Origin: TPA_inf: Saccharomyces
Taxonomy: Eukaryota
DNA: 64,000 nt
Direction: 5' to 3'
NCBI GenBank assembly: GCA_000146045.2
Contig: BK006948.2
Coordinates: 1 to 64,000, forward strand
Part shown: one piece after another, positions 22,525-28,702 of the stretch
How the letters are laid out: each line of letters opens with the position of its first letter
Position numbering within the stretch: the stretch's first letter is position 1
Translations under genes and position numbers: made by a program
The notes under the pieces: generated by a model
Database searches by the model: none
What the model was told of the DNA's origin: nothing
Seen by the model: only the letters and a program-made list of their open reading frames with translations

Positions 22525-24294
22525 TCATTCAGATATGTAAATTCTGCCCTCCCATGGCTTCAATGTTCTGGAAGACGCATCAACTTCGCTTCTTGGGTAG
22601 TTTCCGAATTCCAACTTAAACGACGAGCTATTGTTTGGAATCGTGAAGTCAATCGAATCAGAGCTGAAGTTCAAAGCAGCAAACAATGTTTTGTTGTCGT
22701 ATTTCTTTGTGAAGCTGAACAGTTTCTTATTGTCCAAATCAATAAACTCAAAATCATATCCATATACAGTAATATCCTTGTGTGCCTTTCTAAATCTCAA
22801 GGCCTCCTTCCAGAAGTTCAAAACCGAGTTGGGATCCTTGGATTCGTCTTCAGCGTTAATTCCTTCCCTGAAAGACTCGTTCAAGTAAAACCATGGTTTA
22901 GCATTAGGACCAGAAAAACCAGCATTTGGCTCCTCACGAGACCATTGCATAGGTGTTCTAGCATGGTCTCTGGAAATAAGGGCAATTGCTTCCAAAAACC
23001 TCTTCATCTCCTTCGAGTTTTCTCCATGCTCTTCCTTGATCGCATCATAGTTATTTCTAACTTCGACATCCTCGTATTTTTCGATAGGCCAGTTCTTGAA
23101 ATTGATTTCACCCAGTTCCTGTCCTTGGTACACATATAGAGTACCGCTCAGTGACACCAACAACACAGACAACAACTTACCAGAAATAACACGGTTCTTA
23201 GGAGAATCGTCACCAAATCTGGTAATTGAACGAGGTTGGTCGTGATTTTCCAGATAAATTGTTGACCAACAATCAGTTCCGTTAACGTATCTGAAAAGTT
23301 CAGCAAGGGCAACCTTCCAATCCTTTAGTTCATATGGGATCAAATTTTGACGGAACTTGGGCGAAGTCCCGACATCAGTGTGGGAAAAGTTGAATAACTC
23401 ACTAAGTTCGTGTCTTGATGCACTTGTATACAACCTCTTGGTTTCATCAGTAGCATGTTGCATTTCACCAACTGTCATAATTTCTCTGCCATCCTTCACT
23501 CTGTTTCTGATGAACTTGTTCATTTCTTGATGAAACTCATGGATACGTGGTCCGTTCATTGTGAAAGGATCACTGGGTTGCCACTTTGAGTTTTCGTCAA
23601 TCACAGGAGCGTCTGGTAGACCAGCAACCTTGGAGTACAAGCTTCCCACATCAATTCTAAAGCCGTCTACACCATGGTCTAACCAGTATCCAACGGCACT
23701 TTCGTAGATTGCCTTTCTACAGTCCTCATTCTCCCAATTCAAATCAGGTTGGGTGGAGCAAAACAAACGCAAGTAAAACTCTTGTGTCTTTTCATCGAAC
23801 GTCCATGCAGAACCACCGAAGTAAGACCTCCAATTGTTTGGAGGAATTGGCTTGCCTTCGGCGTCATAACCCTTAGGAGGTCTCCAGAAGAACCAGTCAC
23901 GTTTTGGATTGGTTTTTGAGGATCTGCTCTCTTTGAACCATTCATGTTCGCTCGAGCAATGGTTGATGACTAAGTCGGTGATAAATTTCATACCAAGCTT
24001 ATGTGTCTTTTCGATCAAGGCAAAGCAGTCCTCGTTCGTACCGTAGGTTGGCCAGACCTTTTCGTAGTTGGCAATATCGTAACCCATATCATCTTGTGGC
24101 GAGTCGTAGAATGGTGAGATCCAAATGGCATCGGCACCAAGCTCTTTGATATACTCCAACTTGGAGGCAATACCCTTCATATCACCCCACCCATCGTTGT
24201 TGGAGTCTTTGAAACTTGCGGGATAAATTTGATAGATTGTGGCCTCTTTCCACCACTTGGGTTCTGTTTCTGGATGTGCAGAAGAAATAGTCAT
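22525..24294 (-). CDS. IMA2: Isomaltase / oligo-1,6-glucosidase, GH13 alpha-glucosidase, 589 aa
   Basis: [73 protein letters not shown]... has GH13 catalytic motifs; sits adjacent to an HXT gene, the subtelomeric IMA-HXT pair. Confidence 0.9.
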
Positions 24295-24718
24295 TGTACG
24301 TTGCTTTCTTTTCTTTATGAAAAAACTTTCACTTTTGTTTGTGTGTTTGGACTGGTGAATGGAACATATATTCTAGTACAGCTAATTCCTCGAGTGAAGA
24401 AGTCTTTCTTACTTATATATGTCTTTTACGTGCCTATGGACGTCTTACGAATGATCGAAAATAAGAAAAGAACAAAGTAAATTTAGGATCTGGAAGGAGT
24501 GCTGTATGTAAACGAAGCTTTCAGTTTTAGGTAATGTTTGCACAACCTACATGATATAACATGGTATGTTCTGCAAGAGCGTGCCTGGCCCTTGGCCCGT
24601 TATAGCAGATCATACCATCTGCAAGCAGACCCCATTATTGCACTGCCTCCGCAATCTTGCGTATACGTAGTCCCACGACAAAGTACGAAGCGTAAACTGA
24701 CCTTGTTCAGTTCCCCAC

Positions 24719-24795
24719 AAAAATTACATAACCATTTCTCCGCGGAATTACATAATCATTTCTCCGCGAAAATTACATAATCATTTCTCCGTGCG
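24719..24795. repeat. Three tandem ~24-bp repeats (AAATTACATAAYCATTTCTCCGYG) in the IMA2-HXT11 divergent promoter
   Basis: aaattacataaccatttctccgcgg / aattacataatcatttctccgcg / aaaattacataatcatttctccgtgcg seen directly. Confidence 0.85.
24739..24746. promoter_or_regulatory. Perfect Pdr1/Pdr3 response element (PDRE, TCCGCGGA) inside the first repeat unit; a degenerate copy TCCGCGAA lies at 24763-24770
   Basis: tccgcgga seen directly, about -530 from the HXT11 ATG. Confidence 0.65.
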
Positions 24796-25272
24796 AGTTA
24801 TAAGTGCTTTTCTCGTGCATCCCTTGGCACTTCACAAAACCTTCTTTTTCTTTTTTTTCTTTATTTCAGGGGAAATCAGTGCAAAACTAAAAAAGAAAGA
24901 AATTTTGTGAAATGTAAACTCCAGGTGTCAAAAAATAAATTATATCCGTGGAAAATCAGGCGTCGGAAATTGTAGATGAAACCGCCTCCTCCACAATAAA
25001 TGCTGACCACACGAACAATGCATACACTCGGACACCTTCGTTCAAAGTATCAGTAGCAGTTCGACACACCGTATACTACTTAGCTCTTAAGGTCTAGGCT
25101 CATCTTTCTCAGTTCCTCTTTTTCGCTAATTAAAGGTATATAATGTCACAGTTGTGTAACTAGAGAAGAGCACACTTGTTCCTATCTTTTTCTTCTTCTT
25201 TTTTTGGTATGAGTTGAAAAAAATAATCATTGCACAATTTAGTTCTAAACGCTTTTGTTATTACTCAATATC

Positions 25273-26976
25273 ATGTCAGGTGTTAATAATACATCCGCAA
25301 ATGAGTTATCTACTACCATGTCTAACTCTAACTCAGCAGTAGGCGCTCCCTCTGTTAAGACTGAACACGGTGACTCTAAAAATTCCCTTAACCTAGATGC
25401 CAATGAGCCACCTATTGACTTACCTCAAAAACCCCTCTCTGCGTATACCACCGTCGCAATCCTGTGTTTGATGATTGCATTTGGCGGCTTCATCTTTGGT
25501 TGGGATACCGGTACCATTTCTGGTTTTGTTAACCTTTCTGATTTCATCAGAAGGTTCGGTCAAAAAAATGACAAGGGAACCTACTACTTATCGAAAGTAA
25601 GAATGGGTTTGATCGTCTCAATATTCAACATTGGCTGCGCCATAGGCGGAATTGTCTTGTCAAAAGTCGGTGATATATATGGTCGTCGTATTGGATTGAT
25701 TACAGTTACTGCCATTTACGTTGTAGGCATCCTAATCCAAATAACTTCCATAAACAAGTGGTACCAATACTTCATTGGAAGAATTATTTCTGGCCTAGGA
25801 GTGGGAGGCATTGCTGTCCTTTCCCCAATGTTGATATCTGAAGTTGCTCCCAAACATATCAGAGGAACTCTGGTCCAATTGTACCAGCTGATGGGTACGA
25901 TGGGTATTTTTCTAGGATACTGTACCAATTACGGTACCAAGAACTATCACAACGCCACTCAATGGAGAGTCGGCCTTGGTCTTTGCTTTGCCTGGGCTAC
26001 ATTCATGGTTAGTGGAATGATGTTTGTACCAGAATCACCACGTTACCTGATTGAGGTTGGTAAAGATGAGGAAGCGAAACGTTCACTATCGAAATCCAAC
26101 AAAGTCTCAGTTGACGATCCAGCCTTGCTAGTTGAATATGACACTATAAAGGCAGGAATTGAACTTGAAAAGCTGGCAGGTAACGCATCATGGTCTGAAC
26201 TACTCTCCACTAAAACAAAGGTCTTTCAGCGTGTTCTCATGGGAGTGATGATCCAATCGCTGCAGCAATTAACCGGTGACAACTACTTCTTTTACTACGG
26301 TACCACCATCTTCAAATCTGTCGGTCTAAAGGACTCCTTTCAGACTTCGATCATTATCGGTGTGGTTAATTTTTTCTCTTCATTCATAGCGGTATACACC
26401 ATTGAGAGGTTTGGACGCCGTACGTGTCTATTGTGGGGTGCTGCTTCTATGCTATGCTGCTTTGCTGTGTTTGCCTCCGTCGGTGTGACAAAGTTGTGGC
26501 CTCAAGGAAGCAGTCACCAAGACATTACTTCTCAGGGCGCCGGTAACTGTATGATTGTGTTTACTATGTTCTTCATTTTTTCGTTCGCCACCACTTGGGC
26601 AGGCGGCTGTTACGTTATTGTCTCAGAGACGTTTCCTCTTAGGGTCAAATCAAGAGGAATGGCAATCGCAACAGCTGCAAACTGGATGTGGGGTTTCCTG
26701 ATTAGTTTCTTTACCCCATTCATTACCGGGGCAATCAACTTTTACTACGGTTACGTATTCTTAGGCTGTCTGGTTTTTGCATACTTTTATGTCTTTTTCT
26801 TTGTCCCAGAAACAAAAGGCCTGACACTGGAGGAGGTGAATACTATGTGGCTGGAAGGTGTGCCAGCATGGAAATCGGCCTCATGGGTGCCACCGGAGAG
26901 AAGAACCGCAGATTACGATGCTGATGCAATAGATCATGACAATAGACCAATTTACAAGAGGTTCTTTTCCAGCTGA
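25273..26976 (+). CDS. HXT11: Hexose transporter, sugar-porter family MFS, 567 aa
   Basis: [17 protein letters not shown]... with 12 TM segments and PESPR/PETKG sugar-transporter motifs; the track ORF begins at an upstream TTG. Confidence 0.9.
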
Positions 26977-28702
26977 TCTTCTAGTTTTCGGTAAATTGGT
27001 AAAAAAGCAAAAAAAAAAATTGACGAAACTAATTCTCTATTATACATAATGTTTTTACTTTTGTACCCTTTAATTTCTAATGAATGTTTTATGGAAGCTT
27101 CAATAAATGCGTGACTGGCTATAGTTGTCGGATGGCAATCCATTATTATGTATACCGTATTATTAAGAGTGCAACTAGGCCCGACTATAAATCTAACACT
27201 CAGATCCTTGTACTGTAATGCATATTTATTTTTTCACAAGTTGCATGCTAATAATACCATGATATTTTTTGAAGCCTTGAAAAATAGTTCAAGCAGCTAC
27301 GATATCATGAATCAATATACTCATTGCAGCCTATGTAATATATATAGGTTCCGTGTTACCACTCGTTTCTGATATTTTCGATATGGCTACACTGGGTTTT
27401 TCATGATGGAAATGTGATACTACCAGTTCCAATATATTTATCTTCCTTATCTATATGACACGCTGTTATTTTAGTTCAAGTCAGTGTCCAATTGGGGTGA
27501 GTGTCACGTGCACAACGACGGTAGTCGTTGGATGTGCTAAATGATGTTCTACTGCCAATGACTGCAAATACGTTCGAAGAGTATAAAATCGAAGGAAACG
27601 AATTAAGTTGCCAATCCTTACTGTAACTATAGCATGTTACATATATGTACCATAAGTATCACATTAAGGTTTCGCCATAGCCATGTGCCTATATTAAATA
27701 GAAATATCACATGGCGATCCACGGAATGTTTATAGATTTTCTTCTTTTGTCTATGGCCCGGGCGAGACATTAATTTATCTTGCTGAAAAATTCGAAAGTT
27801 AAAACTCAATTATGCGTGGGATTTCTCAATTAGGTTACCAGAATTTCAATCTGCTGAAGAATTATGTCTTAAAAAAAAAAGTCCCGCCTCAAAAAAGCCA
27901 AAAAGGGTGTGACTGTAGATTGTGGGTTACTTGCTGTCAAATGACATGAAAATCTCTGCCTGCATGATCCCTGTCAAAATTCGAAAACACGCGGTCATAA
28001 AATTGTGCCTCAAAAAGATATCTTTTCCTGCGGGTTCTCTTAGTAAATGAGGTTAGGTTGTTTCCTATTCTTACGAGATTTCCCTTGTTCTCGCCGCTCA
28101 CATCATTGTCGGTAAGATCTTCCGTAGTGGCAGGTCAAGCAGTGAGGAAGAAAGATCGGCAGTAAACTGATAAGAGCCAAACCGAAAAGTTTCTTATACG
28201 CAAAAACGCTTTGAAAATTCTCCAAGAATCCTATTTGAAACTCTTATTAATAAATAAAGTATAAATATAATAAAGTTTATTGTGAGACATGTCGCGATAA
28301 GCACCCCTTGTCTTTCTTGGAAGGGAGAAATTTGTAATATAAAGCCAAGTGTTCAGAACTCGATTTTTTTCTGACCAAAGAGCGGAAGCTCCACTATAAA
28401 AGTTGGGAGGTACTTTTAGGTTCTCTTAAGTTCGCATTTAATTATGGCCTGAACGATTTTACTGTGGACAATAAGTGAAATAAGTGTCCTTAAAATGTGT
28501 ACGATGTGTACACATCAACCTAGTCTCCCCTTCATTGGCAGAAGAGGGAACCATTTCATCCAAAAAGAATAAAAAAAATAAAAAAAATCCAAATATTAAG
28601 CTAAAAAAATACTTAACTGTTTACACAAAGCGTATATAAAACGCATATTAAGAACCTATCTCGTTTCAGAGGAATAAACTTTTAATTCCTCAGTTAAAAA
28701 AA

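What the first reader, a model, noticed from the sequence alone, without database searches (positions are those of the whole stretch)
24719..24795. A perfect PDRE (TCCGCGGA) embedded in a 3x tandem 24-bp repeat in the IMA2-HXT11 divergent promoter
HXT11 (with HXT9) is a reported Pdr1/Pdr3 target. The perfect PDRE is in repeat unit 1, and units 2 and 3 carry decayed copies (TCCGCGAA, TCCGTGCG). This suggests the element was amplified by tandem duplication and is now eroding. Copy number here could be polymorphic between strains and between the paralogous IMA/HXT subtelomeric cassettes (HXT9, HXT12), and could modulate drug-responsive expression.
Basis: partly seen in the sequence, partly recalled or inferred. 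Interest (0 to 1): 0.5.

Follow-up and report, generated by a model that had tools for sequence, protein, structure and literature searches.

The report
Known Pdr1 site on a variable promoter repeat
The repeat and the drug-response (Pdr1/Pdr3) binding site are real, but the site is already documented as bound by Pdr1; what is new is that it sits on the joint between two repeat units, so gain or loss of units sometimes deletes it.

Summary
Observation confirmed. Window 24720-24795 holds about 3 head-to-tail units (spacing 24 and 25 bp). The only TCCGCGGA in 64 kb lies at 24739-24746. It is flanked by IMA2 (22525-24294, minus strand) and HXT11 (25273-26976, plus strand).

The core interpretation is already known. 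A 2023 Pdr1p CUT&RUN study lists HXT11, IMA2, HXT9, IMA4 and IMA3 among promoters with a bound type A PDRE. Other papers treat HXT9 and HXT11 as Pdr1/Pdr3-controlled.

Three points emerged here:
- The octamer spans the unit 1/unit 2 junction (TCCG|CGGA).
- Across 37 related loci the array has 1, 2 or 3 units in at least 7 junction configurations. Four loci have no type A PDRE in the array, each through a different unit or junction arrangement.

"Amplified, now eroding" is only partly supported. The single-unit eubayanus-type ortholog ends in TCCGCGCG, so the unit 3 end (TCCGTGCG) looks ancestral, not a decayed PDRE. For unit 2 the direction of change is ambiguous. A sister-species-level haplotype keeps 3 units with TCCGCGGA at junction 1, so the array is old and the short alleles are probably contractions.

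This is ordinary biology with a neat evolutionary detail. Interest is low to moderate.

The parts
22525..24294 (-). IMA2 coding sequence (589 aa isomaltase, alpha-amylase family); left gene of the divergent pair
   Evidence: ORF list. Pfam PF00128, E=3.6e-177. The gene name is from my own knowledge.
24720..24795 (.). Three-unit minisatellite. The cores ATTACATAAYCATTTCTCCG lie at 24723-24742, 24747-24766 and 24772-24791. The linkers are CGGA (24743-24746) and CGAAA (24767-24771). The right end is TGCG (24792-24795).
   Evidence: Tandem Repeats Finder score 123. Three matches with none expected by chance. In register with D1/D2 of the repeat finder.
24739..24746 (.). Type A PDRE, TCCGCGGA (palindromic). 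It spans the unit 1/unit 2 junction. It lies 445 bp from the IMA2 ATG and 527 bp from the HXT11 ATG.
   Evidence: Only match in the window. Pdr1p CUT&RUN peaks with type A PDREs are listed for HXT11 and IMA2. Present and identical in 33 of 37 non-redundant loci, counting the window, including the sister-species-level L044.
24763..24770 (+). Unit 2/unit 3 junction, TCCGCGAA. It is one mismatch from type A and is not one of the four PDRE types. It keeps a CCG half-site followed by an A-run.
   Evidence: It varies between haplotypes: TCCGCGAA, TCCGGGAA, and TCCGCGAT in L044. Half-sites with AA flanks are bound and can boost a nearby PDRE, according to the preprint. A role here is inferred.
24788..24795 (+). 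End of unit 3, TCCGTGCG. This is probably the ancestral right flank of the single unit and not a decayed PDRE.
   Evidence: The same ending occurs in the 1-unit alleles L038 and L045. The eubayanus-type single-unit ortholog has TCCGCGCG.
24841..24866 (+). T-rich tract between the two PDREs, typical of a yeast promoter nucleosome-free region
   Evidence: Tandem Repeats Finder period 9 and sequence. The function is inferred.
24945..24952 (+). Second PDRE, type B TCCGTGGA, 321 bp upstream of the HXT11 ATG. A CGG half-site (TCGGAAA, 24963-24969) follows it.
   Evidence: Found in 33 of 38 rows scanned. At this position L044 has type A, L028/L029 have type D on the other strand (CCCGCGGA), and L027 has the non-canonical TCCGCAGA. 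L032's contig ends before the site. Types are as defined in the preprint.
25273..26976 (+). HXT11 coding sequence (567 aa hexose transporter); right gene of the divergent pair
   Evidence: Pfam PF00083, E=4.3e-176. The exact protein is found on chrXV-sized contigs. Cluster members are named Hxt11p.

Best explanation
The interval is a short minisatellite (units of 24-25 bp) in the shared IMA2-HXT11 promoter of S. cerevisiae chrXV. Its first unit junction forms a canonical type A PDRE, the binding site of the zinc-cluster activators Pdr1 and Pdr3.

Together with a type B PDRE 206 bp further towards HXT11, it links this subtelomeric transporter/isomaltase pair, and its chrIX and chrX paralogs, to the pleiotropic drug response. 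The other two unit ends are not PDREs. At most they offer CCG half-sites that could modestly raise occupancy (inferred).

The array arose from a single unit after the split from the eubayanus-type lineage, and the junction 1 site has been kept since. Unit number now changes by slippage, unequal exchange and conversion among the three cassettes. Most changes keep the PDRE. Some remove it, leaving only the downstream site.

Shown: the sequence anatomy, the polymorphism, cross-haplotype retention, and (from the literature) Pdr1 occupancy and Pdr1/Pdr3 control of HXT9 and HXT11. Inferred: the order of evolutionary events, any contribution of half-sites, and any expression effect of copy number.
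For: Anatomy.

Binding and regulation:
- Pdr1p CUT&RUN peaks with a type A PDRE are listed at HXT11, IMA2, HXT9, IMA4 and IMA3.
- An 'HXT9_2' PDRE, chosen from highly occupied sites, drove Pdr1p-dependent reporter activity.
- HXT9 and HXT11 are described as transcriptionally controlled by Pdr1p/Pdr3p and were induced together with PDR genes.
- Two PDRE-type sites lie in 978 bp, against about 0.03 expected.

Population:
- Of 38 rows, 34 keep an identical TCCGCGGA at junction 1. The junction 2 octamer has three variants.
- In the three loci that kept a junction but lost the site, it reads as the junction 2 form (octamer TCCGCGAA, linker CGAAA, period 25), not as a lone substitution.
- Array columns are less variable (8 of 76) than the flanks (25 of 120 and 47 of 149).

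Age and polarity:
- L044 (IMA coding 90%, HXT coding 86%, intergenic 79% identity) has 3 units with TCCGCGGA at junction 1.
- L042, the eubayanus-type ortholog, has one unit and no type A site. It has a type B PDRE about 40 bp upstream, where S. cerevisiae reads TCCCACGA.
- On the flank tree, the PDRE-less arrays (L007, L043, L045, L038) nest inside 3-unit clades.
- The 1-unit allele occurs in an NCBI assembly on a 736-kb contig as well as in a metagenome contig.
Against: - No binding or expression experiment was done here. Occupancy comes from one preprint, and reads in three near-identical cassettes map ambiguously.
- The table in that preprint does not say whether the peak summit sits on 24739 or on 24945.
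- Polarity rests on one clearly single-unit outgroup and one unnamed 3-unit outgroup.
- Neighbour-joining trees of recombining subtelomeric DNA can mislead.
- The loci were retrieved by exact-protein look-ups, so allele counts are not population frequencies.
- Low variability of the array could reflect homogenisation and not selection.
- One TCCGCGGA in 64 kb is not significant by itself (p about 0.16).
Confidence: 0.75

Rival explanations
1. A unit carrying a perfect PDRE was duplicated to three copies, and copies 2 and 3 are mutational wrecks of TCCGCGGA.
For: - When a 2-unit array became a 3-unit array, the two junctions must have been identical at birth.
- Junction 2 is one mismatch from type A and is the most variable octamer (TCCGCGAA, TCCGGGAA, TCCGCGAT), as expected for a copy released from constraint.
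Against: - The unit 3 end, TCCGTGCG, shares bases 7-8 (CG) with the single-copy eubayanus-type ortholog, TCCGCGCG. The same ending occurs in the 1-unit alleles. It is therefore flank sequence, not a decayed copy.
- The single ancestral-like unit has no PDRE of types A to D at its end.
- My hand count from the alignment gives about 4 steps if the first junction was TCCGCGAA-like, against about 5 if it was TCCGCGGA. That is a weak preference against decay.
Confidence: 0.2
2. The minisatellite is neutral subtelomeric repeat noise. Pdr1 control runs essentially through the downstream site at 24945-24952, and the junction octamer is a dispensable bystander.
For: - The downstream site is kept as a canonical PDRE type (B, A or D) in nearly every haplotype, including all four that lack the junction PDRE.
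- About a quarter of yeast promoters contain tandem repeats (Vinces 2009, as cited in PMC3516485).
- A single TCCGCGGA is not significant by chance alone.
- Alleles lacking the junction site exist in apparently normal strains.
Against: - The CUT&RUN table files HXT11, IMA2, HXT9 and IMA4 under type A and not under type B, so those peaks contain the junction octamer.
- Junction 1 is unchanged across about 21% intergenic divergence in L044.
- Type A is the highest-affinity Pdr1p site in vitro.
Confidence: 0.2
3. The repeated unit exists to multiply a site for another factor, for example a Yap-type bZIP protein at the TTACATAA in each unit, or a MAL-type activator acting on IMA2. The PDRE would be secondary.
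For: - Each unit carries TTACATAA, one base off the palindromic TTACGTAA Yap site (sequence; the motif is from my own knowledge).
- The unit core is better conserved than the linkers.
Against: - No literature support for TTACATAA as a yeast site in the searchable library.
- The motif is broken in L044 unit 1 (TATCATAA) and in the eubayanus-type unit (TCACATAA).
- By eye I found no match to the MAL-activator pattern in the units. That check relied on my recall of the consensus and is not a formal scan.
Confidence: 0.08

Closest known systems
PDREs of the S. cerevisiae pleiotropic drug resistance regulon (PDR5, SNQ2, YOR1, PDR3; types A-D bound by Pdr1p/Pdr3p)
   Same: Canonical type A octamer plus a type B octamer in one promoter. 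Reported Pdr1p occupancy. A nearby CCG/CGG half-site arrangement like the one described for YOR1.
   Different: The targets are a hexose transporter and an isomaltase in a subtelomeric divergent pair present in three paralogous copies. The type A site lies on a minisatellite junction and can be removed by copy-number change.
Variable tandem repeats in yeast promoters (Vinces et al. 2009; SDT1 and MET3 examples, as summarised in PMC3516485)
   Same: A head-to-tail repeat inside a promoter whose unit number differs between strains.
   Different: Long units (24-25 bp), only 1-3 copies, and a transcription-factor site at a junction, where the classic cases are long AT-rich tracts. No expression effect has been measured here.
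Binding-site turnover and birth of sites through local tandem duplication in cis-regulatory DNA (described mainly for Drosophila enhancers; from my own knowledge)
   Same: The PDRE position differs between lineages. The eubayanus-type has TCCACGGA about 40 bp upstream of the single unit. S. cerevisiae has TCCGCGGA on a duplication junction.
   Different: Only two outgroup sequences are available. The order of events is inferred and not reconstructed on a full species tree.

Membership tests
PDRE (Pdr1/Pdr3 response element) | Octamer equal to one of the four accepted types (A TCCGCGGA, B TCCGTGGA, C TCCGCGCA, D TCCGCGGG) | tested here: met
   24739-24746 is type A and 24945-24952 is type B. 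Types are as listed in the preprint.
PDRE (Pdr1/Pdr3 response element) | Lies in the upstream region of a gene, within about 1 kb of the start | tested here: met
   445 bp from the IMA2 ATG and 527 bp from the HXT11 ATG.
PDRE (Pdr1/Pdr3 response element) | Occupied by Pdr1p and/or Pdr3p in vivo | not testable with these tools
   From the literature only. Pdr1p CUT&RUN peaks with a type A PDRE are listed at HXT11, IMA2, HXT9, IMA4 and IMA3. Multi-mapping among the paralogs is a caveat.
PDRE (Pdr1/Pdr3 response element) | The adjacent gene's expression depends on Pdr1/Pdr3 | not testable with these tools
   From the literature only. HXT9 and HXT11 are described as controlled by Pdr1p/Pdr3p. The primary paper, Nourani 1997, is not held. 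I found nothing on IMA2 expression.
PDRE (Pdr1/Pdr3 response element) | Retained across diverged haplotypes or species | tested here: met
   Junction 1 is identical in 34 of 38 rows, including L044 at 79% intergenic identity. It is absent from the eubayanus-type ortholog, which has a type B site elsewhere.
Variable promoter tandem repeat (minisatellite) | Head-to-tail copies beyond chance | tested here: met
   Tandem Repeats Finder score 123 and three matches with none expected.
Variable promoter tandem repeat (minisatellite) | Unit number differs between strains | tested here: met
   1, 2 or 3 units in 7 junction configurations. Two cassettes of one strain differ: L009 versus L030.
Variable promoter tandem repeat (minisatellite) | Unit number changes expression | not tested
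   Needs reporter or allele-specific expression assays.
   Only junction 1 is a PDRE type. TCCGCGAA and TCCGTGCG are not among types A to D.
   The single-unit eubayanus-type ortholog ends in TCCGCGCG, and the 1-unit S. cerevisiae alleles end in TCCGTGCG. Neither is a PDRE. However, there is only one true outgroup.

The most novel reading that the evidence does not exclude
The type A PDRE was created on, or just after, a tandem-duplication junction, replacing an older upstream type B site still present in the eubayanus-type lineage. Because it sits on a repeat joint, the array then works as a reversible genetic switch or dial. Recurrent contractions uncouple individual HXT9/11/12-IMA cassettes from full Pdr1 control and so change drug sensitivity between strains.
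Probability: 0.2. Interest if true: 0.45.

Novelty: already known. Interest (0 to 1): 0.3.

Why it matters
The site itself adds nothing to the known PDR regulon. The repeat context is a compact natural example of a strong transcription-factor site that sits on a minisatellite joint. It can be lost or kept by simple copy-number change, and this happens in three exchanging subtelomeric gene copies. If copy number or PDRE loss alters HXT9/HXT11 induction, it could explain some strain differences in drug sensitivity. Naturally occurring alleles (1 unit; 2 units with or without the site; 3 units with or without the site) are already available for testing.

Tried and rejected
- **Papers not held.** Nourani et al. 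1997 (pmid 9271421, PMC232394) and Vinces et al. 2009 are not in the library. I therefore could not check whether the repeat was noted in 1997.
- **Duplicate look-up.** The IMA protein of L007 is identical to IMA2, so duplicated.
- **Metagenome scan.** Seven of the 11 hits were unrelated single-copy chance matches.
- **Fourth unit.** A possible fourth decayed unit at 24796-24821 scored only p≈0.03 against shuffles. The left flank scored p≈0.43. I do not count either as a unit.
- **TTACATAA as a Yap-type site.** I found no supporting paper and the motif is not conserved in the outgroups. It is kept only as a weak rival.
- **Species of L044.** Naming it failed because all IMA2-like proteins collapse into one 90% cluster.
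- **IMA gene regulation.** A search for Pdr1-dependent expression of the IMA genes found nothing useful.

Full report
**What is there**

The interval lies between a 589-aa alpha-amylase-family gene on the minus strand (22525-24294) and a 567-aa sugar-transporter gene on the plus strand (25273-26976). These fit IMA2 and HXT11 at the left end of S. cerevisiae chrXV. The gene names are from my own knowledge. The exact HXT11 protein is found on chrXV-sized contigs, and cluster members are named Hxt11p.

Tandem Repeats Finder reports 2.9 copies of a 24-bp unit at 24720-24791 (score 123). The unit 23-mer matches three times with at most one mismatch, against zero expected, and occurs nowhere else in the 64 kb. 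Spacing is 24 then 25 bp.

TCCGCGGA occurs once in the window. By itself that is not significant, since 0.19 are expected and 16 of 100 shuffles have at least one.

The octamer is not inside a unit. It is made of the last four bases of the conserved unit core (…TTTCTCCG) plus the four-base linker CGGA that joins unit 1 to unit 2.

A second PDRE, the type B form TCCGTGGA, lies at 24945-24952. That is 206 bp nearer to HXT11, and a CGG half-site follows it. Two PDRE-type octamers in 978 bp compare with about 0.03 expected. The window as a whole has 7 against about 1.9 expected.

**What is already known**

A 2023 preprint on Pdr1p/Pdr3p specificity (10.1101/2023.08.11.553033) defines types A to D. 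[quoted passage not shown] IMA3 is also listed under type B.

The same study chose an 'HXT9_2' PDRE from highly occupied sites and found its reporter activity to be Pdr1p-dependent. It also shows that single CCG half-sites, preferably followed by AA, are bound. A half-site next to the YOR1 PDRE raises transcription.

Other papers state that HXT9 and HXT11 are transcriptionally controlled by Pdr1p/Pdr3p and are induced along with PDR genes. All of them cite Nourani et al. 1997, which I could not read.

The core of the finding, a functional PDRE upstream of HXT11 that is shared with the paralogs, is therefore established knowledge.

**Related loci**

Exact-protein look-ups and one metagenome pattern scan gave 37 related IMA-HXT loci from about 34 assemblies or samples. 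The eubayanus-type ortholog L042 is separate and not counted among them. Typing every array gave 38 rows, which include the window and one duplicate locus (L018, the same record as L001).

| Array | Linkers | Rows |
|---|---|---|
| 3 units | CGGA, CGAAA (reference form) | 19 |
| 3 units | CGGA, GGAAA | 8 |
| 2 units | CGGA | 6 |
| 1 unit | none | 2 |
| 2 units | CGAAA | 1 |
| 3 units | CGAAA, CGAAA | 1 |
| 3 units | CGGA, CGAT (L044) | 1 |

- In one strain, the chrXV-sized contig has 2 units (L009) and the chrIX-sized contig has 3 (L030).
- Contigs of chrX type carry 3 units with the PDRE (L028, L029), 2 units without it (L007) and 3 units without it (L043). L045, on a chrX-sized contig, has 1 unit.
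- The same array types occur on contigs of different chromosome sizes, which points to exchange among the three subtelomeric cassettes.
- The sample is not random, so these counts are not population frequencies.

**Conservation**

TCCGCGGA at junction 1 is identical in 34 of 38 rows. Four loci have no type A PDRE in the array. In three of them a junction survives but reads TCCGCGAA, with the linker CGAAA and a 25-bp period. That is the form of junction 2, not a lone base change. In the 1-unit alleles the junction is gone altogether.

The junction 2 octamer exists in three forms. Among S. cerevisiae haplotypes, 8 of 76 array columns vary, against 25 of 120 and 47 of 149 in the flanks.

The downstream site is type B in most loci, type A in L044, type D on the other strand in L028 and L029, and non-canonical (TCCGCAGA) only in L027.

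**Polarity**

L042 comes from an S. pastorianus assembly. By divergence it belongs to the eubayanus-type subgenome (IMA 85% and HXT 81% identity; the subgenome assignment is inferred). It has a single unit, CCCCGCAATGTCACATAATAATTTCTCCGCGCGCAAC, and no type A site. It has a type B PDRE (TCCACGGA) about 40 bp upstream, where S. cerevisiae reads TCCCACGA at 24671-24678.

L044 is diverged at sister-species level (IMA 90%, HXT 86%, intergenic 79% identity). It has three units that carry their own substitutions, and TCCGCGGA is intact at junction 1. I could not name its species.

On a neighbour-joining tree of the flanks with the array removed, L044 and the deepest S. cerevisiae haplotypes have three units with the PDRE. 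The 2-unit forms appear at several places, and the four PDRE-less forms nest inside 3-unit clades at three places.

The simplest reading has three steps:
1. A single unit without a PDRE at its end.
2. Expansion to three units, with a PDRE at junction 1, before the split from the L044 lineage.
3. Later contractions and re-expansions by slippage or unequal exchange.

Recombination can distort such trees, so this is a moderate inference.

**Amplified and eroding?**

For unit 3 the answer is no. Its end, TCCGTGCG, shares bases 7-8 with the single-copy ortholog (TCCGCGCG) and is the ending seen in the 1-unit alleles. It is ancestral flank sequence.

For junction 2 I cannot decide. The two junctions must have been identical when the third unit was made. 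A hand count of changes slightly favours a TCCGCGAA-like starting junction that was perfected at junction 1 (about 4 steps) over a perfect junction that decayed at junction 2 (about 5 steps).

Either way, the PDRE's second half (CGGA) is not present in either flank of any single-unit form. The site was therefore gained in the repeat context and was not simply copied.

**Mechanism**

Shown by the literature: Pdr1p occupies this promoter at a peak containing the type A octamer, and HXT9 and HXT11 respond to Pdr1/Pdr3.

Inferred:
- Dimers bind 24739-24746 and 24945-24952.
- The CCG half-sites at the other unit ends (TCCGCGAAAA or TCCGGGAAAA) may add weak occupancy, as described for YOR1.
- The site probably serves both divergent genes. 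I found no expression data for IMA2.

**Verdict**

The feature is real and the element is already known. The repeat context is a modest and, as far as the searchable literature shows, undescribed detail. Tandem repeats occur in about a quarter of yeast promoters, so the repeat itself is not surprising.

Noticed in passing
window 24945-24969: A second PDRE (type B, TCCGTGGA, 24945-24952) followed by a CGG half-site (TCGGAAA, 24963-24969). It is kept in nearly all haplotypes and switches between types B, A and D in diverged ones.
   Followed up: yes
L042:3045-3052; window 24671-24678: The eubayanus-type ortholog has a type B PDRE (TCCACGGA) about 40 bp upstream of its single unit. The matching S. 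cerevisiae position reads TCCCACGA. This looks like binding-site turnover between species.
   Followed up: partly
window 1310, 17919, 35760, 27718, 43543: Five further PDRE-type octamers: type C at 1310 (-), 17919 (-) and 35760 (+); type B at 27718 (-) and 43543 (+). With the two sites in the IMA2-HXT11 promoter, the window total is 7 against about 1.9 expected under a first-order model.
   Followed up: no
window 24561-24618: An inverted repeat with 25-nt arms, 80% complementary, 8 nt apart (ATGGTATGTTCTGCAAGAGCGTGCC / GGCCCGTTATAGCAGATCATACCAT). It lies on the IMA2 side of the array. Its 3' part (about 24590-24618) is largely conserved in L044.
   Followed up: no
L009 versus L030 (both from GCA_947369795.1); L004, L019, L020, L024, L028-L030: Two cassettes in one strain carry different arrays. 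The same array types appear on contigs of chrIX, chrX and chrXV size, so the three subtelomeric cassettes exchange sequence.
   Followed up: partly
L024, L025 (HXT); L004 (IMA): In some strains the HXT gene is split into two ORFs, or the IMA gene is truncated to 312 aa. Cassette copies are therefore being pseudogenised.
   Followed up: no
window 24724-24731, 24748-24755, 24773-24780: Each unit contains TTACATAA, one base off the palindromic Yap-type site TTACGTAA. I found no supporting literature, and the motif is not conserved in L044 unit 1 or in L042.
   Followed up: partly
window 25255-25272: The ORF tool starts HXT11 at a TTG (573 aa) because it uses bacterial start codons. The 567-aa product from the ATG at 25273 is the form found in public assemblies.
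   Followed up: yes
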